Origin: Shigella phage Henu12
Direction: 5' to 3' (one strand)
DNA length: 64,000 bases
Sequence record: OQ834936
Each line of letters opens with the position of its first letter. The stretch's first letter is position 1. The notes beneath the pieces were generated by a model. The model saw nothing but the letters and a program-made list of their open reading frames with translations. It had not been told where the DNA came from and ran no database searches. The translations under genes and the position numbers were made by a program. This document shows, piece after piece, positions 230-19,808 of the stretch.

Positions 230-319
230 TTTGATACTCCAGTTTAGGTTGATTGTTGGTAAAGCTCTTTATCTGGGGCTTATCTTATCTAACTATAAAC
301 CCCATGTAAAGGACTTTAT
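230..319 (-). promoter_or_regulatory. repeated intergenic cassette copy A1: sigma70-like promoter (-35 TTTACA 310-305, 17-nt spacer, -10 TAAGAT 287-282), stem-loop, conserved leader with GGAG RBS
   Basis: Near-identical element recurs at 701-784 and partly at 1166-1200; hairpin GGGGUUUAU/AUAAGCCCC shows a compensatory base-pair change relative to copy A2. Confidence 0.5.
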
Positions 320-700: not shown

Positions 701-784
701 TTCAGATTCTCCAGTTTAGGATTGTTGGTAAAGCTCTTTATCTGGGGCTTAAGATACTAGCTTTTAAACCCCATGTAAAGTACT
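701..784 (-). promoter_or_regulatory. repeated intergenic cassette copy A2: promoter (-35 TTTACA 779-774, -10 TATCTT 756-751), stem-loop 745-772, conserved leader/RBS
   Basis: Direct repeat of the 230-319 element; conserved tail CCAACAATCCTAAACTGGAGAATCTGAA immediately before the ATG. Confidence 0.5.
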
Positions 785-958: not shown

Positions 959-1165
959 TTAAACGTTGTAATAATAAATTGCTGTATGTCTTGTAAACTG
1001 TCTTGTATGATTTGTCAAGTAACAATCTGACCTGATTGACGTATTAACATATTTATCAAAATCTTTTTCTGAGATACGTTGCCAAACATCACAAATTAGC
1101 ATATAGAAACGACGTTTATTTGTTTTGTTGTTGTCAACAATCATTAACTCACGTTGATATAACAT
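959..1165 (-). CDS. hypothetical protein (68 aa)
   Basis: ORF track; preceded by the conserved leader/RBS (copy A3). Confidence 0.5.
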   Translation of the reverse strand: MLYQRELMIVDNNKTNKRRFYMLICDVWQRISEKDFDKYVNTSIRSDCYLTNHTRQFTRHTAIYYYNV

Positions 1166-1200
1166 TTTCAGATTCTCCAGTTTAGGATTGTTGGGATGTT
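1166..1200 (-). promoter_or_regulatory. partial copy A3 of conserved leader/RBS (CCAACAATCCTAAACTGGAGAATCTGAAA-ATG)
   Basis: Third occurrence of the leader, with a different upstream region. Confidence 0.45.
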
Positions 1201-1214
1201 TCCCGTTGATGCAA

Positions 1215-1243
1215 ATACTATAAGACTGGATTTATGAAGTCAA
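1215..1243 (-). promoter_or_regulatory. sigma70-like promoter (TTGACT-N17-TAGTAT) heading the small early gene block
   Basis: Read on minus strand: -35 at 1243-1238, -10 at 1220-1215; lies about 50 nt upstream of the 1165 start. Confidence 0.4.
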
Positions 1244-1412
1244 CAAAATTTTTAAAAATATTTTTGATGTTTCGTGAATAGAACGCACGTATGCGGATAC
1301 ACTAAAACAGGAATCTAGTCAAGAATTATTTTTGAGTTCTCTACAAATTTTTATCTTGACTTTTGGGAGGAAGGGGAGTAAGAGGGGATGGTGGGGCTGG
1401 TTTCCTACAGCT

Positions 1413-1650
1413 ACCTACCTGCACAAACTGAAAATGAATTTTCCCTTTGGAGTCCAACTGCATCTGCACAGATTGAAAATGAAAAACCCCTTTGGAGTCT
1501 AAACCTGCACAAATTTGAAATGAATTTTCCCTTTGGAGTTCAGCTAAAGAAATCTGTCCAGAGTTCTATGCAACTATACCTGCACAAATTTAAAATGAAA
1601 AAGCCCTCCTTACCTGAGATTTTAAACTCAAACTTTGGAGGGCTTGTCTA
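1413..1650. repeat. tandem array of four imperfect direct repeats of about 45 bp (core CTGCACAAAtTtGAAAATGAAttTTCCCTTTGGAGT), last unit ending in an inverted repeat
   Basis: Units start near 1418, 1463, 1504 and 1578; intergenic between the 959-1165 gene and the macro-domain gene. Confidence 0.7.
1590..1650 (-). terminator. putative intrinsic terminator downstream of macro-domain gene (stem AAGCCCUCC/GGAGGGCUU then U-rich run)
   Basis: Inverted repeat 1602-1610/1635-1643 followed on the minus-strand RNA by UUUUCAUUUUAAAUUU; the loop is large so efficiency is uncertain. Confidence 0.35.
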
Positions 1651-1669
1651 TGTTTATCTGGGTAACTTA

Positions 1670-2464
1670 TTAGTTACGTGCTTCAACATAGTTTACGTTT
1701 TCATGTGTGATATAATCTTCTGCAAACTCTTCTGTAGTCGCATTGATATATACACTTGCATCATCGCCAAACGTTACCGCTCTGTGGTGGTGGCCTTGTA
1801 ACGGGTGGGTAACTTGAGCGTTACTTCGATTGTACTTCTCAACCGGAGGGTAACTGGTGTGTACCTTGCCATTACGCTTCACCTTGAGGGTAACTTTATC
1901 CTTGCCTACCACAGCAACACCATCAAAGTATTGAGGCTCACTGAAGTTCTCCCAACCAGTAACAGGACTAGTCAACTGACTGTACATCTTATCTTCATAG
2001 ACATACATATAAACGTCAACATCCTTCATAGTCTGGTTGATAATGGACAGTACAGCCATGCTATCAAGACCACCAATCCCTGCACCAATCATCGGAAGCC
2101 CAACTTTCTTAAGTTGATTAACTTTACAGTAGTTGTTAAGACGCTGTAAAGCTGCTTCTAAGGCGTTGTATCGTGCATCTTTGCCAGTGATAACCTGAGT
2201 GTAAAGGTTAGCAATTCGACCCTGCTTAAAACGTGCTACAGAGATGTTACCAAGCATTAGATGCTTAGGGTTATGATTTTCACCACCTACTGTAGCATAA
2301 ACTTCAGCGTCAGTTTCATAAGCTTTTGGGTAGCGTTTAGCAATTGTTGCTGCGATACCTGCTGGCATCAAGTTCATGCAGTTACAACCGTGACCAATGA
2401 TATCAAACTTCTTACCATCAAAATCTTTAAAGATATCACCTTTAATAATTTTTACGATACCCAT
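1670..2464 (-). CDS. macro-domain protein, TARG1/DarG-like (putative ADP-ribose glycohydrolase) with C-terminal extension
   Basis: Motifs GHGCNCMNLMPAGIAATIAKRYP and GLPMIGAGIGGLD resemble the TARG1 HCISEDCRMGAGIA and PRIGCGLD signatures. Start moved to internal Met (MGIVKIIKGDIF) with GGGAG RBS and ATGA overlap with the upstream stop; the track ORF extends to 2521. Confidence 0.6.
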   Translation of the reverse strand: MGIVKIIKGDIFKDFDGKKFDIIGHGCNCMNLMPAGIAATIAKRYPKAYETDAEVYATVGGENHNPKHLMLGNISVARFKQGRIANLYTQVITGKDARYNALEAALQRLNNYCKVNQLKKVGLPMIGAGIGGLDSMAVLSIINQTMKDVDVYMYVYEDKMYSQLTSPVTGWENFSEPQYFDGVAVVGKDKVTLKVKRNGKVHTSYPPVEKYNRSNAQVTHPLQGHHHRAVTFGDDASVYINATTEEFAEDYITHENVNYVEARN

Positions 2465-2465
2465 A

Positions 2466-2666
2466 TTAGTAATGCTCCCAACGTTCGTTATCTTCAGATG
2501 GTTTAACTCGGTTACCTTCATGGTCTACCCATAAAGCACCGCAACCTTCACAGATTACTGGCATTGCTGAACCAGCTTTAAATTCTGCCTTTGTAAAGAG
2601 ACCTTTTAAGTCTCCTGTATCTTTTCCAAACATCTCAACAGAACACTTAGTGCAGAAATCAGCCAT
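2466..2666 (-). CDS. small zinc-ribbon protein (CxxC...CxxC)
   Basis: ORF track; two Cys pairs (CTKC, CEGC). Confidence 0.5.
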   Translation of the reverse strand: MADFCTKCSVEMFGKDTGDLKGLFTKAEFKAGSAMPVICEGCGALWVDHEGNRVKPSEDNERWEHY

Positions 2667-4166: not shown

Positions 4167-4631
4167 TTAACCAAGAACTTTCGCAAGGACATTTGCTGCC
4201 ATTGTTGAGGCTTTTGAAGCAGCAGCTACGCCAGCCTTAATGGTATTATCCTTAATCGCAGAAACCGTTGCAGTATCTGTGAAGAGGTAAGTGGTAGTCT
4301 GAGAACCACTTGTAAAGGAAAGCATAAGAGCAGTTTCCAGATTGAAAGAACGGTAAGGAGCACCGGATTGTACAATCCCTTTTGCACCTAACTCTGAAGC
4401 CATACCCATATCATAGATAGTCATCAGATTTTCTTTATGAGCAGTAGTTGAACCAACACCTTTAACGTGTTTTGTGACATTCAACATTGCACGATACTCA
4501 CGAATGTTACCATCAGCTTTCACGTTTACTGCACGAAAGATTTTACCATCGAAATTACTTTTGATAATCTCACGAACTATCTGTGATTTGTTACCGGAAG
4601 CATCGATAGCTACTGTAATAATATTTTGCAT
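4167..4631 (-). CDS. hypothetical protein (154 aa)
   Basis: ORF track; followed by a terminator. Confidence 0.5.
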   Translation of the reverse strand: MQNIITVAIDASGNKSQIVREIIKSNFDGKIFRAVNVKADGNIREYRAMLNVTKHVKGVGSTTAHKENLMTIYDMGMASELGAKGIVQSGAPYRSFNLETALMLSFTSGSQTTTYLFTDTATVSAIKDNTIKAGVAAASKASTMAANVLAKVLG

Positions 4632-4642
4632 GGTTTACTCTC

Positions 4643-5338
4643 TCAGTTTTTAACAAGCATTGTTTTGATGTGTGGTAAGATTCTTTCAACCTTTGCCACG
4701 TTCTTCACTGTATCTTCTATAAAGCATACTACATCATAGTAAGGTAGAATGCAAGACTGAAGCATACGAACTTTCAAACTTTCTGCACTAATCTCATTGT
4801 CACCAAATCCACGCATAAACAGTAGGAAATCACTGTCTACATTCTCATTCAGGAAAAGATGTGTGACAACTCTTTGTGATTCTCCACGAGCAGTTAAGAA
4901 TCCTATATCAGCATTTCTTGATATACCACACAGGATGTTAAAAACATATGTTGGTTTAGCTCTGCGAGAGTCTACCAAGTTAGTATACTGTGAGTAAGTA
5001 CCATCATCTAACAAAGTTGCATTAAGCTCCTTATTAAAGCTTGTAAGAACACCGTCAATGTCTGCTAAGACCATTTTACGTTTTTCTTCCAAGTTCTTTG
5101 CAACCAAGATAAGGCTGTTACGACCAACATCTACAGTTTTACCTGTTAGCAAATCCTGACAAGGAATCTGTGTCTTTGTTGAGTGGAAGTCTTCAAATCT
5201 ACACACAACATTTCTTGCTGTATCTGCAAAGTCAGCTTTAGCAATATCTGACCAACTTGCAGAACTGATATCTAAATCAAGTGGCTTAATATCATAAGCA
5301 TGACACAGAACCATATCAAATTGTTTTGATTCGCTCAT
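4643..5338 (-). CDS. HAD-superfamily phosphatase-like protein
   Basis: Motif LADIDGVLT (DxDGxL/T), the HAD motif I. Confidence 0.45.
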   Translation of the reverse strand: MSESKQFDMVLCHAYDIKPLDLDISSASWSDIAKADFADTARNVVCRFEDFHSTKTQIPCQDLLTGKTVDVGRNSLILVAKNLEEKRKMVLADIDGVLTSFNKELNATLLDDGTYSQYTNLVDSRRAKPTYVFNILCGISRNADIGFLTARGESQRVVTHLFLNENVDSDFLLFMRGFGDNEISAESLKVRMLQSCILPYYDVVCFIEDTVKNVAKVERILPHIKTMLVKN

Positions 5339-5864
5339 ATTTTACCTTTTTAATGTTTGTTGCAAACTCACATTGAGCAAGCAGTTTCATGTTATTGTAC
5401 ACATCTTGAGAGTATTGTCTAGCCTTTGGAATCTTGTATTTGTAACCAGCATTATAAGAAGCTAGGACACGCTTCATAGAGTACTTTCCATCTGGGTTAC
5501 CATGAACCTTAGTCCAGAATAATAGCTCCTTATGAGCCTCTTTCGCTGAGTAATGGAAGTCACTTACTAGCTTCTTCTTAGCAACCTTTGGAGATACCTT
5601 GTTACGCTTTACAACAGTCTTCAAGTGATTTTGGAAAACACCATAATCATGAGTCTTTTTATTTTCTAACATGACACCTAATTGTGACTCTTGTAAGGCT
5701 ATAGCTGCTAAAGGGATTCCCCAACCTTTTCCCATCTGTCCTTCGCCATAGTTATATGCTTTTAACATATTAACTTTCTGGCTGATTGTAAGCTCTGGAC
5801 AGTCAGACGCTGTAGCTAAATGTGCTGTAAAGAATAAGCACAAACCTAAAACAAATTTCTTCAT
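5316..5864 (-). CDS. secreted lytic transglycosylase (SLT domain), candidate endolysin
   Basis: Signal peptide MKKFVLGLCLFFTAHLATA; SLT-like motifs ES, YGVFQ and YNAGY; start set at Met9 with AGGAG RBS (track start 5888). Confidence 0.55.
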   Translation of the reverse strand: MKKFVLGLCLFFTAHLATASDCPELTISQKVNMLKAYNYGEGQMGKGWGIPLAAIALQESQLGVMLENKKTHDYGVFQNHLKTVVKRNKVSPKVAKKKLVSDFHYSAKEAHKELLFWTKVHGNPDGKYSMKRVLASYNAGYKYKIPKARQYSQDVYNNMKLLAQCEFATNIKKVKYERIKTI

Positions 5865-5920
5865 TTGCACTCCTATTTTGTTAAACATGCAGATAATTAT
5901 ACACTAACCTGCACATTTTT

Positions 5921-5950
5921 CAAATAAAAAAGGCTGCCGAAGCAGCCCCT
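5921..5950 (-). terminator. intrinsic terminator GGCUGC-UUCG-GCAGCC plus U6
   Basis: Hairpin and U-tract on minus-strand RNA downstream of rIIB. Confidence 0.7.
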
Positions 5951-5965
5951 TTAGGAATTTACTTA

Positions 5966-7087
5966 TTAAACTTCACGTTTACGCTGAGAAATCAGTTCAC
6001 CAGCAGTACCTACAACTACGTGAAGTGCTTCTGAACCATCCCACTCTTTGATGATTTCACGGCGACTATTTACAATCGCTGCAACTTCATAACGGGAAGC
6101 TCGCATTTTCATGTCGTTGTAGTCAGTTGGTACTGAAACAACATCACGAGGATGAACACGAACTTTCAGGATAGTGTCACCAGAGAAGCTAGTTACATAA
6201 TCCCAAGCACCAACGTGCAGACCCTGAGAGCAGGTTACATGGCGGTTATTATCAACCATCCAACGTGGCATCTCTACAATGTTACCCAAATCATTTGGAA
6301 CTTTGCAGGTACGAGAGTCAAACAGTTTACCACCACGAGTTGTGACTTTCTTCCAACCGATGATATAACCTTCTTCATCAATTTCAACATCGAGGTGTGA
6401 TACGAAGCCCCAAAGTTGTTCTACAGAGTCTTTTGATGGGTTTTCCATCAGTTTTTCAAAGAATGCAATCAGTCGAACAAAGCCATTATCACCTTTCTTC
6501 ATCATATCCAGAATACGGTCTACCAGAGTTGAGCGCATCTGAACAGCACCGTAATACAGGTTGTCACCTTTGATGGTTACAGCACCTTGAGTGAAGTTCT
6601 CAATAGACTTGCGAATGTTCATCAGTTCAAAAGCTTTCTTGTACTCACCTGAAACAACAGCCATTACAATATCAGTGTAGTTAGGGTGAGTTGACTCAAC
6701 AATCTCAGACTCTGCACCGAAAGTCATGATAACAGAATCACCAGTAATCATGTATTCAATCTGGCTGTTATTCTGCATTGCTTCATGCAGAGCATTTACA
6801 GGTTCTGCTTTGACTGCTTCTTTAACAGCTTTTGCAACAGGTTTCTGCTTAGATACCTTCTTGGTCGCTTTAACTTTCTTAGCACTCTTTGCAATATCTT
6901 TCAGAGTCTTTGCAGGTTTTGCTTTGGTTTTCCCTGACAGCAGCGTTGCTTCATGGCGCTCTACAGCACGACCTACCGAACGGGTTGAAGTGTTATACTT
7001 CAGAGCGATTGCAGTTTTGGTCAGTTTACCTTCTTTAACCAGTGCATAGATTTCTGCGTCGATTTGTGCTTTAGTCTTAGTAGTCAT
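5966..7087 (-). CDS. rIIB: rIIB-like protein
   Basis: C-terminal half matches remembered T4 rIIB blocks (LVDRILD, ENPS, KVHPRDVVS-P-DYND-KMR); lies directly downstream of rIIA as in T4. Confidence 0.8.
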   Translation of the reverse strand: MTTKTKAQIDAEIYALVKEGKLTKTAIALKYNTSTRSVGRAVERHEATLLSGKTKAKPAKTLKDIAKSAKKVKATKKVSKQKPVAKAVKEAVKAEPVNALHEAMQNNSQIEYMITGDSVIMTFGAESEIVESTHPNYTDIVMAVVSGEYKKAFELMNIRKSIENFTQGAVTIKGDNLYYGAVQMRSTLVDRILDMMKKGDNGFVRLIAFFEKLMENPSKDSVEQLWGFVSHLDVEIDEEGYIIGWKKVTTRGGKLFDSRTCKVPNDLGNIVEMPRWMVDNNRHVTCSQGLHVGAWDYVTSFSGDTILKVRVHPRDVVSVPTDYNDMKMRASRYEVAAIVNSRREIIKEWDGSEALHVVVGTAGELISQRKREV

Positions 7088-12923: not shown

Positions 12924-13221
12924 AAGTTACAAATGTTACAGCCATAGCTGATTTACATTTCTTTGGGTCTACAATGTGGTAGATAACTGAACAGTTTCCT
13001 GTTCCGTCTGGTACTGGTTTTGTCCAAGTACGTTCAATATTTGGCTCTCCAAACTCTTTATAGAATCCGTTGGAATAGTGGTTTACCATCTCAATAGCAA
13101 GTGCATCTGGAACGTGACCACGTATCATATACATCTCACAACCATTTCCACCATCACTCACTAGTGGTATAATATCCCATTGTTCTCTAGCCATGATAAG
13201 TTGCCTCATAAACTGTCTCAA
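12916..13221 (-). CDS. hypothetical protein (101 aa)
   Basis: ORF track. Confidence 0.45.
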   Translation of the reverse strand: MRQFMRQLIMAREQWDIIPLVSDGGNGCEMYMIRGHVPDALAIEMVNHYSNGFYKEFGEPNIERTWTKPVPDGTGNCSVIYHIVDPKKCKSAMAVTFVTFD

Positions 13222-13702
13222 GCTTCAACAAGAGAGATATTGCCAGAAATGCGTATTCCCTGTCAAGCATTGGTGGCATATTATTTATAAGATATGCTTC
13301 CTGTTCTTCCCAAGTCATCTTAGGAGCTTCTGGAAGCTTCTCTCCCTGCTTCTGGTTATCTTCTTGAGTCTGGATAAACCAGTTCGAGCAATGGTGCTCT
13401 CCACCTTTTGTCACGGGCTTATGGTGGCCTAATGTGAAAGCTTTCTTTCCAGAATATCTACAAAGCTTATTAAGAGTTGCAATAGTGTTCTTGACAACAC
13501 AGTATTCATAGAGGTTGTCAATAGTATAGTGAGGGTAGTACTGGAACAAGGCACTATCACGAAACTTACCACGGTTCCAAAGTACCATGTGGTTAGAATT
13601 TGAAGGGTCATACTGATGTGAATCGATGAACTCTTGACGCTCATCAAAATCAAGACGAAGAACAGACATTGCAGCAGCACGTTTCAGATTTGAATGGTAC
13701 AT
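13187..13702 (-). CDS. HNH endonuclease-like protein
   Basis: Motif GHHKPVTKGGEHHCSNW (His-His...Asn...His). Confidence 0.55.
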   Translation of the reverse strand: MYHSNLKRAAAMSVLRLDFDERQEFIDSHQYDPSNSNHMVLWNRGKFRDSALFQYYPHYTIDNLYEYCVVKNTIATLNKLCRYSGKKAFTLGHHKPVTKGGEHHCSNWFIQTQEDNQKQGEKLPEAPKMTWEEQEAYLINNMPPMLDREYAFLAISLLLKLETVYEATYHG

Positions 13703-13711
13703 GATTTCTCC

Positions 13712-13742
13712 AAAATAAAAAGGGAACCTTTTACAGTTCCCT
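13712..13742 (-). terminator. intrinsic terminator AGGGAAC-loop-GUUCCCU plus U-tract
   Basis: Hairpin followed by UUUUUAUUUU on minus RNA, then GGAG RBS of the HNH gene. Confidence 0.6.
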
Positions 13743-13754
13743 AATCATATACGT

Positions 13755-14066
13755 TTACTGAGCTATTTTCAAGACTTTTAAGAAACCTTCCTCACCAATT
13801 GCATCATAAACGTTTTCAGTTGGCTTGATAAGGTTATTCAAGCATACAATTTTCTTACGCTTCTTGTCATAAGTAAGCTTCAGTTGTTTCAACTCTTTGT
13901 CATCTTCAGGGTGCTCATTGTACATCTTCACAGCTTCTTTAAAGCTAATGTAGCCACCACCTAGAGTAAGGAAACCTGTACCACAATAGTGGGAGTTGTG
14001 TTTATCAGCCATAAACTGGCACAGGATAGAAATCTGAATTTTACGAGTGTTATAAACCTTTTCCAT
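13755..14066 (-). CDS. hypothetical protein (103 aa)
   Basis: ORF track. Confidence 0.5.
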   Translation of the reverse strand: MEKVYNTRKIQISILCQFMADKHNSHYCGTGFLTLGGGYISFKEAVKMYNEHPEDDKELKQLKLTYDKKRKKIVCLNNLIKPTENVYDAIGEEGFLKVLKIAQ

Positions 14067-14077
14067 TTTAATAATCC

Positions 14078-14335
14078 TTACTTGCTACGTTTACGGTTGC
14101 GAGCTTTTTTAGCTGCACGTTTAATTGCTGCTGCACCAGTTTGGCGATGAGCTTGCTTCTTACCACCTTTACCACGTCCAACATGGATGTAAGGTTGCTG
14201 TTCAATCTGGCTTGCAAGAACCTGTGCAACTGCTGAAGCGTCTACTCCAACCTGCTTACCAGTCATTGAAACGATAGCTGCTGCTTTTGCCAGAGCTGCT
14301 AAGAAACCTGCTTTCATGTTTGAAAAAATTCCCAT
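14078..14335 (-). CDS. hypothetical protein with basic C-terminus (85 aa)
   Basis: ORF track; Lys/Arg-rich tail. Confidence 0.5.
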   Translation of the reverse strand: MGIFSNMKAGFLAALAKAAAIVSMTGKQVGVDASAVAQVLASQIEQQPYIHVGRGKGGKKQAHRQTGAAAIKRAAKKARNRKRSK

Positions 14336-14350
14336 TTTAATATCTCTCTG

Positions 14351-14671
14351 TTAAAGTTTAATACAGAACTGCTTCAGTTCTTCTTCTGTTACTGCGACAA
14401 CTTTATCATCAACTCTCAAGTTTGTCGCGTAAAAGTTTGAGAAATGTGCTTTGTATTTTACTTTAAATACTCCGGCGTCCTCAATCTGCTTCAAGGCTGT
14501 CATTCCAGTGGAATCAAATAGGCTTTTTGTGTAGTTTCTCCACTCTTCAAGAGTTTCTGGATTGACTTTATAGCTACCAAACAGTGACATGTTACAAGCT
14601 ACCATAACAATCTCACCACGTTTGAATCCACCATTACTCTGTACGCCATTGACAGTCGCCTTGCCAGCCAT
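14351..14671 (-). CDS. hypothetical protein (about 106 aa)
   Basis: Start set at internal Met (MAGKATV) preceded by GGAGAAAAG RBS; track ORF extends to 14752 over nrdG. Confidence 0.45.
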   Translation of the reverse strand: MAGKATVNGVQSNGGFKRGEIVMVACNMSLFGSYKVNPETLEEWRNYTKSLFDSTGMTALKQIEDAGVFKVKYKAHFSNFYATNLRVDDKVVAVTEEELKQFCIKL

Positions 14672-15125
14672 ATTCTTTTCTCCACAAGTTTTGGTTATCT
14701 GAACCACGATATGGTTTGTTCGTTGGTTTAGAAGCATCATACTTACCATCAATCACTACGTCAACATATTTCATCACTTCTTTGTTAATTTTTTCATGAA
14801 GCTGAAATCCTGTCCACAGCCAGATAGTCTTGTCTGGATAGATAGACTTAACCTTCTGACAAATCTTGGTGACTTCCTCAATATTACGGTCATCAAGTGG
14901 TTCTCCACCAAGAATTGACAGACCACTTATAGAGTCATCTTCCAAGAGTCTTATAATGCCATAAAGGTTTGCATAAGTAAACTCTTTACCAGCATTAAAC
15001 TTCCAAGATTCCTTGTTAAAACAACCTTCACAGTGATGTTTGCAGCCAGCTACAAAAAGACTGACACGAGCACCTTCACCGTTCGCTGTATCGAATTTTC
15101 GTATTTCCATGTAGTTCATTAGCAC
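14634..15125 (-). CDS. nrdG: anaerobic ribonucleotide reductase activating protein (radical SAM)
   Basis: CxxxCxxC cluster (CKHHCEGC), about 160 aa, adjacent to nrdD. Confidence 0.8.
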   Translation of the reverse strand: MLMNYMEIRKFDTANGEGARVSLFVAGCKHHCEGCFNKESWKFNAGKEFTYANLYGIIRLLEDDSISGLSILGGEPLDDRNIEEVTKICQKVKSIYPDKTIWLWTGFQLHEKINKEVMKYVDVVIDGKYDASKPTNKPYRGSDNQNLWRKEYGWQGDCQWRTE

Positions 15126-15511
15126 ACCTCAACTTCAAAACTTACATGTTTTGTGACGTACTCTTCACAATGCTCTTTAATAAATTCCTGAAGCAGTTCA
15201 TCTTCCTGAGCACGAGTCATCAAAGCAACATACTTTGGATTTATTGTTTGCTGAATACTGTAGAAAGACATGTCACCAATTTCTGTACCATATGAATCTG
15301 ACCATGTTCCAGTTACTACTAAGACTTTATCACTCAACTCCGTAGGGAGTTCAATGTCATCATCCTTTGCGTCATCAATAACAGAGTCAGTTATTAAAAG
15401 AGTACATGCTATGTAAAACTCTGAGTATTTTCTGTGAGTTTTCTCACAAGAGCCACACTCTAAAGCATAGTCTTTAAGCCAGTTCATTTGATTTTTATTT
15501 AATTTAGTCAT
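15119..15511 (-). CDS. hypothetical protein (130 aa)
   Basis: ORF track. Confidence 0.5.
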   Translation of the reverse strand: MTKLNKNQMNWLKDYALECGSCEKTHRKYSEFYIACTLLITDSVIDDAKDDDIELPTELSDKVLVVTGTWSDSYGTEIGDMSFYSIQQTINPKYVALMTRAQEDELLQEFIKEHCEEYVTKHVSFEVEVC

Positions 15512-15608
15512 TTCTCTTTCCTTTCAATGTGTTGTATAAAAGCCCTAACAAGAAACCTAGTAAGACAGAGCCTACTAAGGTGACTAACAAGAATGTCTTA
15601 ATCATCAT
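15504..15608 (-). CDS. small hydrophobic single-TM peptide (34 aa, MMIKTFLLVTLVGSVLLGFLLGLLYNTLKGKRND)
   Basis: Hand translation; start overlaps the upstream TGA (TGATG) and stop overlaps the downstream ATG, so it is translationally coupled on both sides. Confidence 0.4.
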   Translation of the reverse strand: MMIKTFLLVTLVGSVLLGFLLGLLYNTLKGKRND

Positions 15609-15865
15609 CAATACCACCATATTGTTTGGTTGTTATCACAAACATACAGGTACTCTGTCCCGATTTGTGGGACGATGATTGTAGTGTTGCCTGATATGAC
15701 TGTCATATAGTATATGTATTCCCTGCTTTGTGATGTTTGCTGACAATTGTTTGCATTCATCCAAATTCTTGTTTGATAAGTGTCATATATTAGTAACCCT
15801 ACTAGTATTGCTAATGCAATTCCAAGGAACCATAACCAGAATTTAGGCCAAAAGTCATAACTCAT
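15608..15865 (-). CDS. hypothetical membrane protein
   Basis: Hydrophobic segment FWLWFLGIALAILVGLLIY; start set at Met10 (track start 15892). Confidence 0.45.
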   Translation of the reverse strand: MSYDFWPKFWLWFLGIALAILVGLLIYDTYQTRIWMNANNCQQTSQSREYIYYMTVISGNTTIIVPQIGTEYLYVCDNNQTIWWY

Positions 15866-16044
15866 ACTGTGACCTCTTGATAAACTTTCCAAACATTCTT
15901 TGTAAACTCTTCATCGTACCAAACACCGTTAGCAGCTTGCCAAGACACAGTGTATTTGTCTTCAGACACATGCTTGAGAACAGCCTCAAAAGTTCGATTA
16001 GATTTTCCTGCAACGAAAAGATAGACCTTACCAATTTCCAGCAT
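15862..16044 (-). CDS. hypothetical protein (60 aa)
   Basis: ORF track; preferred over the overlapping 15855-16058 frame on composition. Confidence 0.4.
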   Translation of the reverse strand: MLEIGKVYLFVAGKSNRTFEAVLKHVSEDKYTVSWQAANGVWYDEEFTKNVWKVYQEVTV

Positions 16045-16108
16045 TGTGGTATCTTCAATAAAAAAGGTGATGCAAGCCTATCAAGACCTACACCACCTTG
16101 TCAACTAC

Positions 16109-18249
16109 TTACATAGATTTTCTATCCTGAATCTCAGCAATTTTTGCATCGTTCATTCTGGAAGTGCCTTTAATCTTAGTCCAGCCAAGATAACCACAAA
16201 CACGGTTAATCACAGAGATATCATGTGAGTTGCACTTAGGACATAATTCAACATCTGCACTTGGACGGTGACCACAATTTTCACAGATTGCTAAATCAAA
16301 GTTAACACCTTGGTAGAAACCTTTACCCATACCTCTTGTCACACAAGCTCTGATAGCTTTATGGTTCTCTGGGTTAGCAATACGAACATATTGGATATGA
16401 CCACCATTACAAGAGTGGAAGAAAGGTTCTTCTAGGTCTTGCTTTTCAAATGGTGTAATATCTGCACCAACATTCATATGGAAGCTGTTTGTGAAGTATT
16501 CTTTATCAGAAACACCTTTAACAACCCCGAACATATTTCTAAACTGCTTCAATTGCGTACCACAAAGACTCTCAGCAGGTGTACCATAAAGTGCATACAG
16601 GAAGCCGTCTTCCTGCTTAAACTGCTCCAGCTTGCTATTCAGATAGCTTAAAACCTTGCTTGCAATATCACCATCAGACTCATGCAATCTTCTACCTTGA
16701 GCAAGCACTGTTAATTCATCTAATGCGGTCACACCAAAAGATGCTGTAAAAGACTTAACAGTGTCCCAACCAATCTTATCAGTTGGCTTCTTATGACCTT
16801 TATACAATCCACCTTGTGTAAATGCTAAAGGGTTAGAACTTGCTGGCATATTAGCAATCATCTCATAACGCTTCTTATGGAAGCTTCGAATCATTTCAAG
16901 GTATTTGTCAAGCTCTTTCCAGAAGTCTAAATCATTCTCTTCAGAGTACTTGTAAATCATCGGCAGATTAAGAGATACTGCACCAATGTTTGCTCTACCT
17001 GTGTAGAACTCTTTACCTTCCTCATCATAGTAAGGAGATAAGAAAGCCCTACAACCCATTGGAGAGATAACTGCACCTGAACGTTCAAAAGCTTCTGCAA
17101 CAGAACCATGACCAGACACACTTAAGAAGTCTGGATACATAGCTTTAGAGCAACACTCAATAGCCTTATCATAAAGCTGCCCCTGCCAAGGGTCTAACAT
17201 ATGTCTTGTTTCATCATAGATATAAACCAGTTTAGGGAACACAACAGGCTTCTTAGATTTACCTTGACCATTCATCCTAACATCTAGAATAGTCTTAGCA
17301 ACCATAAATTGCAAACGGTTATCTTCACTAGCCATGTCTGGTTCAAGTAAACCAAATGTTAATGTTGTGAATGCAAAGTCACCACGACTGCAAGGAACAG
17401 TGTTCAGTTTCATTTCCAAAGATTGGAATCCTTGAGTTAGTTCAATCTGGAGTTGCTCTTTAGCGTAGTGGTATACTTCCTTGCTTGGAATATTATATTG
17501 CTTTGCTTTTTCCAGATGATACTCAAAAGACTTCTTAGCATATGGCACAAGAACCTTGTCAATCTCTGGGATGGTGAATCCTCCAAACTGCTGTGCAGTT
17601 GCTGAAAGTACAACATCACCGATAACCTGTAAAGCTGAGAGTACAGACTTAGGTTCACAGTACTCAATGCCGGACATTTCAAAGCCACCTTTCAGGACAC
17701 TTCCAATGTCAAACAAGCAGCAGTTAATACCCCCGAAGATTAAATCTCTTAAGTCATGGATATAAATAAATCCATCCTCAATAGCTCTTGTTTCTTCTGG
17801 TGTTAAGTGGTACTGCTTAAAGATTTCTTTTGTCAGATACCCACGAATGATTGAACCTTTTGTAGAGATTAAGCTGCTGTCAAAGTTAGCATTCTCACGG
17901 TCACCTAAGAAGAGTGTGTCTTTAGTTTTCTGGTAAAGTTCATCCCAATTCTGTGCAACCTCTTTACGATAGTTTCTGTAGGTTGAGTATGACTCATAGA
18001 TTTCATGGTTTACCTCTGCCAGAGTTCCCTCTACAATACTGTGAACATCATCTACAGAGATGAGCATAGCATTCTGATTAGTTGCTCTGACAAGCAATCT
18101 CATAAAGGCTGATTCAAGAGCGTGAATAACTTCTAGTGGTAACTCTTTGTAGCCAACTCTATTAGCTGACTTGGTAACTGCTTCGACGATTTTATTTACA
18201 TTTGGTTTTTCCAGTGAACCGTCTTTCTTAATAATTTGTACTTTAACCA
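16109..18249 (-). CDS. nrdD: anaerobic ribonucleoside-triphosphate reductase
   Basis: C-terminal glycyl-radical motif RVCGYLG; start set at MVKVQIIKKDG with AGGAG RBS (track start 18319). Confidence 0.9.
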
Positions 18250-18263
18250 TTCTGACTCCTAAT

Positions 18264-18290
18264 GCAAAAAAGGTCTCCGAAGAGACCCTT
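18264..18290 (-). terminator. intrinsic terminator GGGUCUC-UUCG-GAGACC plus U6
   Basis: Hairpin and U-tract immediately upstream of the nrdD RBS. Confidence 0.7.
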
Positions 18291-18299
18291 ATATTAATT

Positions 18300-18500
18300 C
18301 TACTTAGAAAACTTTTCAATAAGCTTTTTAAGCTTTCCGCTCAAATCATGTTTGATATCTAATATCTCAAAGATAACCCATACTAACATAGCTCCAAACA
18401 GAGCACCTTGTTTTAAATCAGTAAATAGGCTAGTAACCATGAATGCCAGAGCAATCATCGGAGCATCTTCAACAAAACCATCCCATAAACGTTTAAGCAT
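18300..18500 (-). CDS. small membrane protein (66 aa)
   Basis: ORF track; two hydrophobic segments. Confidence 0.45.
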   Translation of the reverse strand: MLKRLWDGFVEDAPMIALAFMVTSLFTDLKQGALFGAMLVWVIFEILDIKHDLSGKLKKLIEKFSK

Positions 18501-18735
18501 TATTCACCTCTGCCATAAAGTTTTGTAGTGTTCCAACAGGTTTCATTTCATTATCTTCAACCTTCATAATGAAAGGCATCTGACGAACAGGTATCTTTGC
18601 AATATCCATCAGGTCACTTAGCTCATAATCTTTCCCAAGCATTCTAACAACATGGTCTAAGCCACGAGCCTGAGCAAAGTTCTTAGCAGTCACACACTGT
18701 GGGCATCCATCTTTTGAGTAAATTACATAAGTCAT
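18493..18735 (-). CDS. nrdH: glutaredoxin-like protein (NrdH-like)
   Basis: CPQC active-site motif near the N-terminus; 80 aa; next to nrdB. Confidence 0.7.
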   Translation of the reverse strand: MTYVIYSKDGCPQCVTAKNFAQARGLDHVVRMLGKDYELSDLMDIAKIPVRQMPFIMKVEDNEMKPVGTLQNFMAEVNNA

Positions 18736-19808
18736 TAAGGAACCTCTAAAAATCCTGAATTTAAATCATCAACAACAGTATTCAAAAGATACGCACCATT
18801 TTGTTGTTCTTGGTTAGCGTTTTGCTCTTTATCAATTTCCATCTTCTTAATCATATATTTCAAAGGTGGTTCTTTAGGAGCTACGAAGTCTCTTGGAATA
18901 CCAAACATATCATACAATGGAGCAGCGTTGTAGTAAACCCATTCGTGAAGAAGTTTTGTATTTAAACCTACAACAGCACGTCCTTCAGAGAAAATATAAT
19001 AAGACCATTTCTCTTCACTTTCAACTACCTCATCCAGAATTACTTTAATTTCTGGGAGTACTTGACGGAAAGCTTCTTGCCACTCTTCATCTTTCAAAGT
19101 TTCTTTTAATGCTTCGATATCAATCTTTGTGTGAATGATTTCGTCAAGCATAATTTTCTGTACTGCTTGTGCAATCCCTTGGAACTTATCTTGTGCATCA
19201 AGTGCAAAGGTACATGCAAAGGATGCCATGAAGGAAATACCCTCAAGTGCTGTTACTGCAAAGAGACCTTTTAAGATTACTTTGTGGAAGTGTAAAGGGT
19301 CTTTCTCCATTAGCTCTTGACGAACATATCTTAAACGATAGTTAATACCTTCGTCAAGAAGTTCTGCCAGTGCTCTGTTCACAGTCTTCAATCTGTCCTG
19401 AACAGCAGCGTTCTGGTTAATCTCATCAAGGATTGTTTCAGGGTTCTTGATACACTGACGAACAATCTCTGAATAAGTTAGTGCATGAAGGTTCTCAATT
19501 TCTGATTGCTTCATGATAGCAGTTGCATAGATATCATCAGAGATGAATGGTGCAAATGCAAAAGCTAAACTCTTAGCAACCTGTGTATCTGCTTCCCATT
19601 GCCATTTCAGAATCTCAAGCATTACACCAGACATTGATTGAGGGACACTCTCAAAGTCTAAACGTGACTGTTCAAATGGGAACTCATCTTCAGACCAGTC
19701 TTGTGCTTTCTGCTGCTTATACAGTTCAAAGATTTTTGGATAGTGTTTATTCAGTGAGTCGAAAGTTTTTCGTTCACCGCCTAAGAAAATTGGATGTGGA
19801 TTAATCAT
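18735..19808 (-). CDS. nrdB: ribonucleotide reductase class Ia beta subunit
   Basis: 357-aa protein with R2-family character by my recognition; directly downstream of nrdA. Confidence 0.88.
   Translation of the reverse strand: MINPHPIFLGGERKTFDSLNKHYPKIFELYKQQKAQDWSEDEFPFEQSRLDFESVPQSMSGVMLEILKWQWEADTQVAKSLAFAFAPFISDDIYATAIMKQSEIENLHALTYSEIVRQCIKNPETILDEINQNAAVQDRLKTVNRALAELLDEGINYRLRYVRQELMEKDPLHFHKVILKGLFAVTALEGISFMASFACTFALDAQDKFQGIAQAVQKIMLDEIIHTKIDIEALKETLKDEEWQEAFRQVLPEIKVILDEVVESEEKWSYYIFSEGRAVVGLNTKLLHEWVYYNAAPLYDMFGIPRDFVAPKEPPLKYMIKKMEIDKEQNANQEQQNGAYLLNTVVDDLNSGFLEVP

What the first reader, a model, noticed from the sequence alone, without database searches (positions are those of the whole stretch)
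1413..1650. Intergenic array of four ~45-bp tandem direct repeats ending in a hairpin
Seen: units starting near 1418, 1463, 1504 and 1578 share the core CTGCACAAAtTtGAAAATGAAttTTCCCTTTGGAGT; the last unit is replaced by the inverted repeat AAGCCCTCC...GGAGGGCTT followed by a T-rich run on the minus strand. The array sits in a roughly 500-bp non-coding gap that also holds a G-rich stretch (1360-1400) and a sigma70-like promoter (1215-1243). Inference: candidates are replication-origin iterons, a binding array for a phage regulator, or a cluster of small RNA/promoter units. The overlapping plus-strand ORF 1388-1801 is probably an artefact of the repeats.
Basis: seen in the sequence. Interest (0 to 1): 0.65.

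Follow-up and report, generated by a model that had tools for sequence, protein, structure and literature searches.

The report
Conserved four-copy repeat array behind a terminator
Just after a transcription stop signal, this Felix O1-type phage carries four same-direction copies of a ~26-base DNA motif that are kept in all relatives examined and look like docking sites for an unknown protein, though what they do is untested.

Summary
The window is a Mooglevirus (Ounavirinae), 100% identical here to Shigella phage Henu11. All nearby genes are on the minus strand, so the array should be read on that strand.

The 504-bp gap 1166-1669 holds, in order:
- the intrinsic terminator of the macro-domain gene
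- four oriented units with an almost invariant core, A5/T5-TCATTT-N7-GTGCAGGTA
- a G/C-rich tract, the only canonical G4 motif in the ~89-kb genome
- two back-to-back TTGACT boxes
- a strong sigma70 promoter

All 35 distinct arrays collected from three genera have three or four units with fixed spacing. A distant uncultured lineage has five units. The whole genome has only one further copy (5930-5905, minus strand). It is fused to another terminator and overlaps the -35/spacer of the next promoter.

Several readings fail:
- There is no conserved ORF, no Rfam hit and no RNA covariation.
- No DnaA or IHF consensus sites occur in the gap.
- The array is not at the genome termini.
- The inner units are not stable terminators.

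Best reading (about 0.4): iteron-like binding sites for an unidentified DNA-binding protein acting on transcription at an operon boundary. Replication-origin iterons (about 0.2) remain possible. The array was not described in the papers read.

The parts
1592..1645 (-). Intrinsic terminator closing the operon that ends with the macro-domain/'phosphatase' gene (2521..1670). Outer stem is 1645-1637 / 1609-1601, there is an inner stem, and the T-tract TTTTTCATTTT runs to 1592.
   Evidence: Sequence. The fold is -21.3 kcal/mol with z = -4.7. Relatives have different 5' arms but keep the pairing, at -17.5 to -23.6 kcal/mol. It is annotated as a terminator in the Tribble, KhF1 and ASO1A records and as t13 in Felix O1.
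1576..1620 (-). Unit 1 of the array. Its upstream box is the terminator's 3' arm GGTAAGGAGGGC, followed by a T5 tract and the core TCATTTT-AAATTT-GTGCAGGTA (GTGCA at 1585-1581).
   Evidence: Weight-matrix score 36.8 bits. Repeat family D1. Conserved in all 35 distinct arrays.
1546..1575 (-). Longer spacer between units 1 and 2. It carries a weakly -10-like CATAGA (TGTAGA or TATAGA in Felix-type phages) 15 nt after GTGCA.
   Evidence: Alignments. The promoter scan flags TTTTCA-17-TATAGT at 1601-1573 with 9 of 12 matches. This is not conserved in Kolesnikvirus.
1501..1545 (-). Unit 2, A-type: ACTCCAAAGGG-AAAAT-TCATTT-CAAATTT-GTGCAGGT (GTGCA at 1510-1506).
   Evidence: 31.5 bits.
1460..1500 (-). 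Unit 3, T-type: ACTCCAAAGGGG-TTTTT-CATTTT-CAATCT-GTGCAGAT (GTGCA at 1469-1465). It includes a weak mini-hairpin.
   Evidence: 32.3 bits. The scan flags it as terminator-like. Its hairpin is only -5.6 kcal/mol, z = -1.8, and the Felix O1 equivalent is -1.2 kcal/mol.
1415..1459 (-). Unit 4, A-type: ACTCCAAAGGG-AAAAT-TCATTTT-CAGTTT-GTGCAGGTAGG (GTGCA at 1424-1420).
   Evidence: 35.8 bits.
1362..1400 (.). Strand-asymmetric G/C tract, C-rich on the gene-sense strand. 1365-1396 on the plus strand is the only canonical G4 motif in the ~89-kb genome.
   Evidence: G4 regex over the window plus the rest of Henu11. The tract is conserved in Felix-type and Moogle-type phages. Tribble-type phages instead have G-runs on the other strand.
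1317..1361 (.). Inverted repeat AGTCAAGA (1317-1324) / TCTTGACT (1354-1361), giving two back-to-back TTGACT -35-like boxes around an A/T-rich core. The minus-strand box is TTGACT 1322-1317 + 17 nt + TATCCG 1299-1294. The plus-strand box is TTGACT 1356-1361 + 17 nt + TAAGAG 1379-1384 and points into the array.
   Evidence: The block AAAAGTCAAGA.AAAAATTTGTAG...AAAAATAATTCTTGA is almost invariant (nearly every column identical) in 25 aligned relatives. The plus-strand box has better -10 elements in Tribble-type phages (TAGCCT) and in Fifi318 (TATACT), read. Promoter activity is inferred, not shown.
1215..1270 (-). Strong sigma70-type promoter TTGACT-17-TAGTAT (1243-1215), with an A/T-rich UP-like block upstream. 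It serves the downstream early gene 1165..959.
   Evidence: Promoter scan. Conservation profile. Annotated as a promoter in ASO1A.
1166..1194 (-). Start-associated leader CCAACAATCCTAAACTGGAGAATCTGAAA with the ribosome-binding site, directly before ATG 1165. It is a separate repeat family, not part of the array.
   Evidence: Exact copies of the 21-nt core CAATCCTAAACTGGAGAATCT at 704-724 and 1170-1190. Described for phage Mordin (PMC4611695).
5896..5949 (-). Fifth, solitary copy of the motif. It comprises a terminator hairpin (5949-5931), then TTTTTATTTGAAAAATGTGCAGGTTA (5930-5905), then TATAAT (5901-5896). The motif covers the -35/spacer of the promoter of the operon that ends at the array.
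   Evidence: 24.4 bits, and the only other hit of at least 9 bits in the whole genome. Sequence. The orthologous site is present but weaker (13.2 bits) in Felix-type phages, and no site was found at 12 bits or more in several loci.
1388..1801 (+). Plus-strand ORF of 137 aa. It is an artefact of the repeats and is not a gene.
   Evidence: No Pfam hit. ORFs over the array differ in length, frame and strand in relatives, and indels between relatives are not multiples of 3. It overlaps the real macro-domain gene in antisense.

Best explanation
The four units are oriented, iteron-like DNA recognition sites for a sequence-specific protein that has not been identified. It could be phage-encoded or, less likely, a host protein. 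Each site has an A5 or T5 tract, an invariant TCATTT box, a 7-bp spacer and an invariant GTGCA(GGTA) box. That is two short boxes about one helical turn apart, with no dyad symmetry.

The sites sit directly behind the intrinsic terminator that closes the rIIB-to-macro-domain operon. They lie about 100-190 bp ahead of the promoters of the next early gene.

The most likely role is control of transcription at this operon boundary. A protein bound 7-16 bp past each U-rich tract could block or stall RNA polymerase. This would reinforce or time termination and read-through, and could set the activity of the neighbouring promoters. The fifth copy is fused in the same way to the terminator after rIIB and covers the -35/spacer of the promoter that starts the same operon. 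The operon would therefore be bracketed by the same site.

**Shown:** the anatomy, the orientation, the conservation, the genome-wide uniqueness and the lack of coding or RNA-structure signal.

**Inferred:** that a protein binds, which protein it is, and that the effect is on transcription.
For: 1. **Deep conservation.** All 35 distinct arrays from Felixounavirus, Mooglevirus and Kolesnikvirus have 3-4 units on the gene-sense strand. Spacing is fixed at 73-77/39-41/45, or 37/37/39 in Kolesnikvirus. A distant 88-kb uncultured lineage has five units after its own macro-domain gene. 258 phage records match the array region.

2. **Pattern within a unit.** TCATTT and GTGCA are almost invariant across 90 distinct units. 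The 7-bp spacer and the flanks vary, and the flank boxes are lineage-specific.

3. **DNA-level signature.** The tract before the core is either A4-5 or T4-5. These are equivalent as a DNA minor-groove shape but not as RNA.

4. **No other signal.** There is no conserved ORF and no Rfam hit. No compensatory pair is found on either strand in 14 diverse arrays.

5. **Genome-wide uniqueness.** Only five sites exist in about 89 kb, all in one orientation. Two of the five share the T-tract of a strong terminator. The fifth overlaps a consensus promoter.

6. **Regulatory context.** The gap is packed with other almost invariant regulatory blocks. The Felix O1 authors state that how transcription passes its many terminators, and how timing is controlled, is unknown (PMC3185647).

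7. **A possible binder exists.** The phage encodes at least one helix-turn-helix protein, Felix O1 ORF85 (HTH_3, E = 3e-9).
Against: - No binding protein is identified. The one recognisable phage HTH protein is Cro/C1-type, and such proteins normally bind palindromes. This site has no dyad symmetry.
- The fifth copy is weak (13 bits) in Felix-type phages. It was not found at 12 bits or more in Kolesnikvirus and some other loci. The promoter link is therefore not universal.
- The spacings (37-45 bp) are not multiples of a helical turn.
- Units in the distant lineage and in Kolesnikvirus are not tied to hairpins. The terminator association may be secondary.
- Unit 4 lies about 100 bp from the nearest -35 box, too far for simple steric repression.
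- Nothing here separates a transcriptional role from a replication role.
Confidence: 0.4

Rival explanations
1. Replication-origin iterons. The four repeats would bind an initiator or helicase-loading factor. The adjacent G/C tract, the A/T-rich block and the back-to-back promoters would then provide transcriptional activation or an R-loop primer for the T7-like replisome.
For: - Four same-orientation repeats of 22-26 bp lie next to a strand-asymmetric G/C tract, which is the only G4 motif in the genome.
- An almost invariant A/T-rich block with divergent TTGACT boxes follows.
- This is the largest non-coding gap of the early region.
- The replisome is T7-like: polymerase, primase/helicase and exonuclease. 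From established knowledge, T7 starts replication from promoters next to A/T-rich DNA without a dedicated initiator.
- In the distant lineage the array is followed by about 12 TTAACA repeats (8 within a 400-nt window).
Against: - No initiator gene is annotated, and the neighbouring genes have no known function.
- No DnaA or IHF consensus lies in the gap.
- GC skew shows no inflection at the array.
- Spacing is irregular rather than helically phased.
- The G4 tract is absent or strand-flipped in Tribble-type phages.
- The divergent DNA-polymerase/ORF97 region is at least as good a candidate, and the Felix O1 authors suggested it as the start of early transcription.
Confidence: 0.2
2. RNA-level element. 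The repeats would act in a transcript. One option is read-through or 3'-UTR RNA of the macro-domain operon. The other is an antisense RNA started at the conserved plus-strand TTGACT box (1356-1361). Either could provide repeated binding sites for an RNA-binding protein or a sponge.
For: - The plus-strand -35 box pointing into the array is conserved in three genera. It has good -10 elements in Tribble-type phages and Fifi318.
- RT-PCR of the since-removed 'ORF14' in this gap of Felix O1 gave a product, maximal at 25 min (PMC3185647).
- All copies share one orientation.
- In the distant lineage no hairpin separates the gene from the array.
Against: - There is no Rfam family.
- The plus-strand fold is no better than shuffles, z = -0.04.
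- No compensatory pair occurs on either strand.
- A5 and U5 tracts are not equivalent in RNA.
- A strong terminator precedes the array on the sense strand.
- No terminator is evident for an antisense transcript.
- The RT-PCR was not strand-specific.
Confidence: 0.12
3. Protein-free termination module or evolutionary relic. The units would be tandem duplications of the terminator's 3' half and its downstream sequence. They would be kept as back-up terminators, or as downstream elements that raise termination efficiency.
For: - T5-[C/T]-ATTT is the usual terminator tail in this phage.
- Unit 1 and the fifth copy are fused to strong terminators.
- Unit 3 is flagged as terminator-like.
- Unit 1 and the fifth site align through the -10 region, which suggests a common origin.
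Against: - Inner-unit hairpins are no better than shuffles: -1.2 to -5.6 kcal/mol, z from +0.3 to -1.8.
- Half of the units have A-tracts instead of T-tracts.
- Other terminators in the genome lack GTGCA.
- The most conserved part, GTGCA, lies outside any terminator.
- The five units of the distant lineage have no hairpins.
- Invariance across genera argues against a relic.
Confidence: 0.1
4. DNA-entry stop signal, like the injection stop signal of T5. The array would mark where genome transfer pauses after the first 7-9% of the DNA has entered. That segment carries many small genes with their own promoters.
For: - The array lies about 6.3-8 kb (7-9%) from the mapped genome end.
- The segment between array and end has lower G+C, 0.35 against 0.38-0.42.
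- That segment is made of small genes. The two that fall inside the window each have their own promoter-like hairpin element and leader.
- The T5 stop signal is a conserved non-coding repeat region at 7.9% of the genome, with a related element about 3 kb away (bioRxiv 10.1101/866236).
Against: - Two-step transfer has never been reported for Felix O1-type phages.
- There are no DnaA boxes.
- Which end enters first is unknown.
- The small genes are transcribed towards the end.
- The resemblance is positional only.
Confidence: 0.07
5. Packaging or terminal-repeat element (pac site or part of the direct terminal repeat).
For: Three GenBank records (KhF1, TH10, LMP34) begin or end inside this gap.
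Against: - Those record ends fall at four different positions. KhF1 shows low-quality duplicated sequence there, which points to an assembly break.
- In UAB_Phi87 the ends were mapped experimentally (PMC4837284).
- Only the 6,568-bp SpeI fragment (13,014-19,582) can yield the two terminal fragments of 4,322 and 2,819 bp with a repeat of about 600 bp. The array (22,156-22,313) lies in the 40,349-bp fragment.
- A unique YTAACA cluster marks the real terminal region.
Confidence: 0.01

Closest known systems
Iterons of plasmid and phage replication origins (lambda ori, P1 oriR, RK2 oriV); compared from general knowledge
   Same: Both have three to five direct repeats of about 20 bp in one orientation, in a non-coding region. 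Both lie next to A/T-rich and G/C-rich blocks. Extra copies at a promoter are known from iteron plasmids, where they give autoregulation.
   Different: No initiator gene is recognised. There are no DnaA or IHF sites. Spacing is 37-77 bp and irregular, not about 22 bp. The array is fused to a terminator. No origin activity is known. The replisome is T7-like, and T7 needs no iteron-binding initiator.
Binding-site array of regulator p4 in the phi29 early/late promoter region; compared from general knowledge
   Same: Several sites for one small phage protein are packed into about 200 bp of intergenic DNA. The sites contain A-tracts and lie between closely spaced, partly divergent promoters. The array is used to switch transcription timing.
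   Different: The p4 sites are inverted repeats that overlap the promoters themselves. Here the units are asymmetric and all point one way. They sit behind a terminator and, apart from the fifth copy, do not overlap strong promoters. No p4 homologue was seen.
Injection stop signal region of phage T5 (bioRxiv 10.1101/866236)
   Same: Both are highly conserved non-coding repeat regions at about 8% of the genome from one end. Both border a block of early genes, and both have a related element a few kb away.
   Different: The T5 region is about 1.2 kb of nested inverted and direct repeats with paired DnaA boxes inside a 10-kb terminal repeat. Here there are four simple direct repeats with no DnaA boxes, 6-8 kb from a terminal repeat of about 0.6 kb. 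Two-step entry is not known for this family.
Intrinsic (Rho-independent) terminators
   Same: Unit 1 and the fifth copy each include a bona fide G+C-rich hairpin plus U-tract after a stop codon. Pairing is kept across lineages.
   Different: The conserved GTGCA box lies 7 nt beyond the U-tract, outside the terminator. Units 2-4 have no stable hairpin, and half of the units have A-tracts.
Start-associated sequences (26-bp repeat noted in phage Mordin, after cluster K mycobacteriophages; PMC4611695)
   Same: Both are short conserved repeats in the same early region of the same phages.
   Different: This is a different sequence (CCAACAATCCTAAACTGGAGAATCT). It sits directly before start codons, one copy per gene. 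The array described here is not next to any start codon.

Membership tests
Replication-origin iterons | Three or more direct repeats of about 17-25 bp in the same orientation | tested here: met
   Four units have a 22-26 bp conserved core, all on one strand.
Replication-origin iterons | Regular, helically phased spacing | tested here: not met
   Spacings are 75/41/45 here, 73/39/45 in Felix O1 and 37/37/39 in Kolesnikvirus.
Replication-origin iterons | Adjacent A/T-rich unwinding element and host-factor sites (DnaA, IHF) | tested here: inconclusive
   Conserved A/T-rich blocks lie at 1325-1353 and 1244-1270, separated from the array by the G/C tract. No DnaA box (up to 1 mismatch) or IHF consensus is in the gap.
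Replication-origin iterons | Cognate initiator protein encoded by the element | tested here: inconclusive
   None is annotated in Felix O1, whose replisome genes are T7-like. The neighbouring genes belong to PHROGs of unknown function.
Replication-origin iterons | Origin activity | not testable with these tools
   GC skew shows no inflection at the array, but in this genome skew follows transcription direction.
Intrinsic terminator (hairpin 1645-1592) | G+C-rich stem-loop followed by a U-tract, downstream of a stop codon on the same strand | tested here: met
   -21.3 kcal/mol, z = -4.7, followed by UUUUUCAUUUU, 24 nt after the stop of 2521..1670.
Intrinsic terminator (hairpin 1645-1592) | Pairing maintained in relatives despite sequence change | tested here: met
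   Five lineages have different 5' arms, and finno also has a changed 3' arm. All fold at -17.5 to -23.6 kcal/mol.
Tandem intrinsic terminators (units 2-4) | Each unit has a stable hairpin plus U-tract | tested here: not met
   Hairpins are -1.2 to -5.6 kcal/mol and no better than shuffles. Units 2 and 4 have A-tracts.
Sigma70 promoter cluster | -35 and -10 hexamers at 16-18 bp in each unit, conserved in relatives | tested here: not met
   Only unit 1 scores 9 of 12 in this phage. -10-like TRTAGR follows units 1 and 4 only and is absent in Kolesnikvirus.
Structured non-coding RNA | Match to a known family, or a conserved structure with compensatory changes | tested here: not met
   No Rfam match was found. 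There are 0 compensatory pairs on either strand. The plus-strand z-score is -0.04.
CRISPR array | Repeats of 24-48 nt separated by unique spacers of similar length | tested here: not met
   The material between conserved cores is 4-38 nt and is itself conserved among phages.
Protein-coding tandem repeat | Conserved open reading frame with in-frame units | tested here: not met
   Unit spacings of 45, 41 and 75 are not all multiples of 3. ORFs differ among relatives and have no Pfam hit.
Terminal repeat / packaging site | Located at the physical genome ends | tested here: not met
   The mapped ends of UAB_Phi87 lie in the SpeI fragment 13,014-19,582. The array is at 22,156-22,313.
T5-type injection stop signal | Conserved non-coding repeats at the inner edge of the first-entering about 8% of the genome | tested here: inconclusive
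   The distance to the mapped end is 7-9% of the genome. Which end enters first is unknown.
T5-type injection stop signal | Paired DnaA boxes and nested inverted repeats | tested here: not met
   There are no DnaA boxes and only simple direct repeats.
T5-type injection stop signal | Two-step DNA transfer | not testable with these tools
   No report was found in the papers read.

The most novel reading that the evidence does not exclude
The array would be a cis-acting stop or checkpoint for DNA entry, a T5-like two-step transfer in a myovirus. Alternatively, and more generally, it would be a protein-dependent barrier that separates a first-expressed 7-9% terminal segment of small host-takeover genes from the rest of the genome. 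This would make Felix O1-type phages a second, independent example of staged genome delivery or expression.
Probability: 0.07. Interest if true: 0.85.

Novelty: new variant of a known kind. Interest (0 to 1): 0.5.

Why it matters
Felix O1-type phages are classic Salmonella typing phages and are widely used for biocontrol. Even so, how they time transcription, pass their many terminators or start replication is not known. The Felix O1 genome paper says this directly for transcription.

This array is one of the most conserved non-coding features of the subfamily. It is more conserved than many of the small neighbouring genes, and it is absent from the annotations and papers examined. The motif is short, unique in the genome and easy to mutate. 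It therefore gives a concrete handle for finding the regulator or initiator that binds it, and for testing whether the early gene block is insulated from the rII operon.

It also matters for annotation. Many GenBank records call spurious genes across it, and three assemblies break in this gap.

Tried and rejected
- **Coding repeat.** ORFs over the array are not conserved and have no Pfam hit.
- **tRNA or known RNA family.** ARAGORN and Rfam found nothing relevant.
- **Conserved RNA structure.** RNAalifold on both strands of 14 diverse arrays gave no compensatory pairs.
- **Genome end or pac site.** This was suggested by three record ends in the gap. It was rejected after mapping SpeI sites in UAB_Phi87 against the published terminal fragments. 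A separate YTAACA cluster marks the true terminal region. The "DTR" of phage KMM2 is only a 64-nt overlap, located in that same terminal region.
- **General promoter class.** A weight-matrix scan of the whole genome found only five sites, so this is not a middle or late promoter motif.
- **Host element.** A two-unit pattern scan of 185,579 species genomes gave 38 unrelated hits and none in Enterobacterales.
- **Host-factor sites.** No DnaA or IHF consensus was found. From memory, CRP, Fis, NtrC, marbox, EcoKI and Ter motifs did not fit.
- **GC skew as an origin signal.** This was uninformative, because skew follows gene direction.
- **Rho-utilisation role for the C-rich tract.** This is doubtful, because Tribble-type phages carry G-runs on the sense strand instead.
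- **Literature.** The Felix O1, Mordin, Michonne, UAB_Phi87, CRISPRi-ART (SUSP1) and PhageMaP (Bas63) papers do not describe the array.
- **First pattern search.** My first fixed-length search found nothing, because units differ by 1-nt indels.
Full report
**What the window is**

The region 1150-1700 is 100% identical to Shigella phage Henu11 (Mooglevirus, Ounavirinae). It is 90-99% identical to other Moogleviruses and about 75% identical to Felix O1-type phages. In total 255-258 phage records match it.

All credible genes around the finding are on the minus strand:
- 2521..1670 is a macro-domain protein, annotated 'phosphatase' in relatives (Pfam Macro, PHROG 335).
- 1165..959 is a 68-aa protein of unknown function.

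The 504-bp gap between these two genes is therefore best read on the minus strand.

- Tandem Repeats Finder reports 1417-1539 with period 45 and score 140, the best-scoring array in the window.
- The repeat finder gives four 43-nt copies at 1417-1459, 1462-1504, 1503-1545 and 1578-1620.
- A weight matrix built from relatives scores the four units at 31.5-36.8 bits. Shuffled windows give 0-2 hits even at 9 bits.
- The hairpin, the G-rich stretch and the promoter are all present at the stated places.

**Anatomy on the minus strand**

1. **Terminator.** After the stop codon at 1670 comes an intrinsic terminator (1645-1592; -21.3 kcal/mol, z = -4.7).
2. **Units.** Four units follow, with GTGCA at 1585, 1510, 1469 and 1424. 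Each reads, in order:
   - a lineage-specific box of about 11 nt
   - an A4-5 or T4-5 tract
   - TCATTT
   - seven variable bases
   - GTGCAGGTA

   The upstream box of unit 1 is the 3' arm of the terminator, and its T-tract is the terminator's U-tract.
3. **G/C tract.** A C-rich tract follows. On the plus strand, 1365-1396 is the only canonical G4 motif in the ~89-kb genome.
4. **Back-to-back -35 boxes.** An 8-bp inverted repeat, AGTCAAGA/TCTTGACT (1317-1361), forms two back-to-back TTGACT boxes around an A/T-rich core. The plus-strand box points into the array.
5. **Promoter and leader.** An UP-like A/T block and the strong promoter TTGACT-17-TAGTAT (1243-1215) come next. A start-associated leader then runs up to ATG 1165.

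**Comparative evidence**

I collected the homologous gap from nine annotated phages, and from 65 viral contigs found with a two-unit pattern. This gave 35 distinct arrays.

- **Copy number.** Every array has four units, except Si3/finno-type phages, which have three after loss of one 39-bp unit.
- **Orientation.** It always matches the flanking genes.
- **Spacing.** It is 73-77/39-41/45 in Felixounavirus and Mooglevirus, and 37/37/39 in Kolesnikvirus (Erwinia phages), where the flanking DNA no longer aligns.
- **Core.** Across 90 distinct units, TCATTT and GTGCA are almost invariant. The seven bases between them and the flanks vary.
- **Flank boxes.** CTCCAAAGRG, GGTCGGGCAAG and GGTCTGGCAAG are repeated within a lineage but differ between lineages. 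This suggests unit turnover with a constant core.
- **Distant lineage.** An 88-kb uncultured contig with no close isolate relative carries five units, AAAWTCATTTTAAAAACGTGCATAGG. They again lie right after its macro-domain gene and have no hairpins.
- **Host genomes.** No such array occurs in one-genome-per-species bacterial collections for Enterobacterales.

**A fifth copy**

Scanning the whole genome (the window plus the remaining 25 kb of Henu11) gives only one further site, at 5930-5905 on the minus strand, scoring 24.4 bits.

This site is fused to the terminator after the 373-aa gene 7087..5966, which corresponds to rIIB. Its T-tract is again the terminator tail. Its GTGCAGG lies in the spacer of a near-consensus promoter, TTGAAA-16-TATAAT, 13 nt upstream of the -10 element.

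That promoter starts the roughly ten-gene operon that ends at the array. The orthologous site exists in Felix-type phages but is weaker (13.2 bits). It was not detected at 12 bits or more in several other loci.

**What it is not**

- **Not coding.** ORFs across the array differ in length, frame and strand among relatives. The 137-aa plus-strand ORF has no Pfam hit.
- **Not a known or structured RNA.**
  - There is no tRNA and no Rfam match.
  - The plus-strand fold equals shuffles.
  - RNAalifold finds no compensatory pair on either strand.
- **Not a set of terminators.** The inner-unit hairpins (-1.2 to -5.6 kcal/mol) are no better than shuffles, and half the units carry A-tracts.
- **Not a promoter class.** Only five sites exist genome-wide. 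-10-like elements follow only units 1 and 4 and are missing in Kolesnikvirus.
- **Not the genome end.**
  - For UAB_Phi87 the ends were mapped by Bal31 digestion and run-off sequencing. The direct terminal repeat is 608 bp and the terminal SpeI fragments are 4,322 and 2,819 bp (PMC4837284).
  - In its sequence the SpeI fragments are 3,321, 8,559, 6,568, 40,349, 11,425 and 17,381 bp.
  - Only the 6,568-bp fragment (13,014-19,582) fits those terminal fragments.
  - The array (22,156-22,313) lies in the 40-kb fragment.
  - The terminal region carries a unique dense cluster of YTAACA repeats, which Henu11 has too.
  - The three GenBank records that end in this gap do so at different positions. One shows poor-quality duplicated sequence, so these are assembly breaks.

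**Most likely mechanism**

The conservation pattern has three features:
- two short invariant boxes about one helical turn apart
- no dyad symmetry
- an A-tract or T-tract in front, equivalent as DNA shape but not as RNA

This pattern is what is expected of a protein recognition site in DNA. The fixed orientation and copy number, the position behind a terminator, and the fifth copy over a promoter all point to transcription.

I therefore favour an array of binding sites for an unidentified protein that acts at the boundary between the rII-macro operon and the downstream early genes. One plausible action is as a barrier 7-16 bp past each U-rich tract. This would strengthen or time termination and shield or tune the nearby promoters. 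Only the anatomy and conservation are shown. Binding and its effect are inferred. I give this 0.4.

The Felix O1 paper states that passage of its many terminators and temporal control are unexplained. Its RT-PCR gave a product from a now-removed 'ORF14' in this gap, so the region is transcribed at some stage. The assay was not strand-specific.

**Rivals**

- **Origin iterons (0.2).** These fit the repeat architecture and the neighbouring G/C and A/T blocks. They also fit a T7-like replisome that might use promoters to start. However, there is no initiator, no host-factor site, no phasing and no skew signal.
- **RNA-level role (0.12).** It is supported mainly by the conserved plus-strand -35 box.
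- **Protein-free termination relic (0.1).** It is weakened by the fold results.
- **T5-like DNA-entry stop (0.07).** It rests on position alone. The array is 7-9% of the genome from the mapped end, at a drop in G+C from about 0.38-0.42 to 0.35, bordering a block of small genes.

**Comparison with known systems and novelty**

The closest known kinds are origin iterons, phage regulator site arrays such as phi29 p4, and the T5 stop-signal region. The array meets only some defining features of each, as set out in the membership table.

None of the papers read describes it. They mention only the terminator (t13 in Felix O1) and the unrelated 26-bp start-associated repeat. Several records annotate spurious genes across it.

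I rate it a new variant of a known kind, meaning oriented protein-site or iteron arrays, with moderate interest. It is deeply conserved, unannotated and readily testable, but its function cannot be settled by sequence analysis.

Noticed in passing
window 1365-1396 (+): GGGAGGAAGGGGAGTAAGAGGGGATGGTGGGG is the only canonical G-quadruplex motif on either strand of the whole ~89-kb, 39% G+C genome. Tribble-type relatives lack it and have G-runs on the opposite strand.
   Followed up: partly
window 1317-1361: Perfect 8-bp inverted repeat AGTCAAGA/TCTTGACT, forming two back-to-back TTGACT -35-like boxes around an A/T-rich core. The block is almost invariant in 25 aligned relatives, more conserved than the neighbouring genes. 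The plus-strand box points into the array and has better -10 elements in Tribble-type phages and Erwinia phage Fifi318.
   Followed up: partly
window 5896-5949 (-): A solitary fifth copy of the array motif is fused to the terminator after the 373-aa gene 7087..5966 (corresponds to rIIB). It overlaps the -35/spacer of a near-consensus promoter, TTGAAA-16-TATAAT, before gene 5888..5316, which has a weak SLT-domain hit.
   Followed up: yes
window 704-724 and 1170-1190 (-): Exact copies of CAATCCTAAACTGGAGAATCT lie directly before the start codons of two small early genes. This is the 'start-associated sequence'-like repeat reported for phage Mordin, and its role is unknown.
   Followed up: partly
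window 258-282 and 727-751 (-): Exact 25-nt repeats TAAGCCCCAGATAAAGAGCTTTACC are part of a hairpin embedded in promoter-like TTTACA-17-TATCTT elements upstream of small early genes. They correspond to the 57-bp direct repeat listed for Felix O1.
   Followed up: no
outside the window: Henu11 about 44.2-45.1 kb (L075 5900-6800); UAB_Phi87 14.6-15.9 kb; L042 about 600-760: A unique dense cluster of YTAACA repeats (up to 15 per 400 bp, all on one strand) coincides with the experimentally mapped terminal-repeat region of UAB_Phi87. In the distant lineage L042 a smaller TTAACA cluster lies directly after the five-unit array.
   Followed up: partly
L046 about 4420-4621 (IMG/VR contig 3300045988_004180): After unit 3, the phage sequence joins G+C-rich DNA that does not resemble phage sequence, at a GATC site. 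This is probably an assembly chimera.
   Followed up: no
KT184313 (KhF1) 1-400 and 87,950-88,356; MT446388 (TH10) end; MK482690 (LMP34) end: Three GenBank records start or stop inside this intergenic gap. KhF1 repeats about 400 nt at both ends, with many Ns. The G/C tract and the repeats appear to break assemblies.
   Followed up: yes
window 2466-2666 (-): This 66-aa conserved protein has two Cys-x-x-Cys pairs and looks zinc-ribbon-like by eye. It has no Pfam hit and falls in a PHROG of unknown function. It is encoded in the operon bracketed by the motif.
   Followed up: no
window around 1-1700 versus 1700-64000 (gene-sense coordinates 63-70 kb): G+C content drops from about 0.38-0.42 to 0.35 on the terminus side of the array. 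The array therefore sits at a compositional and gene-size boundary.
   Followed up: partly
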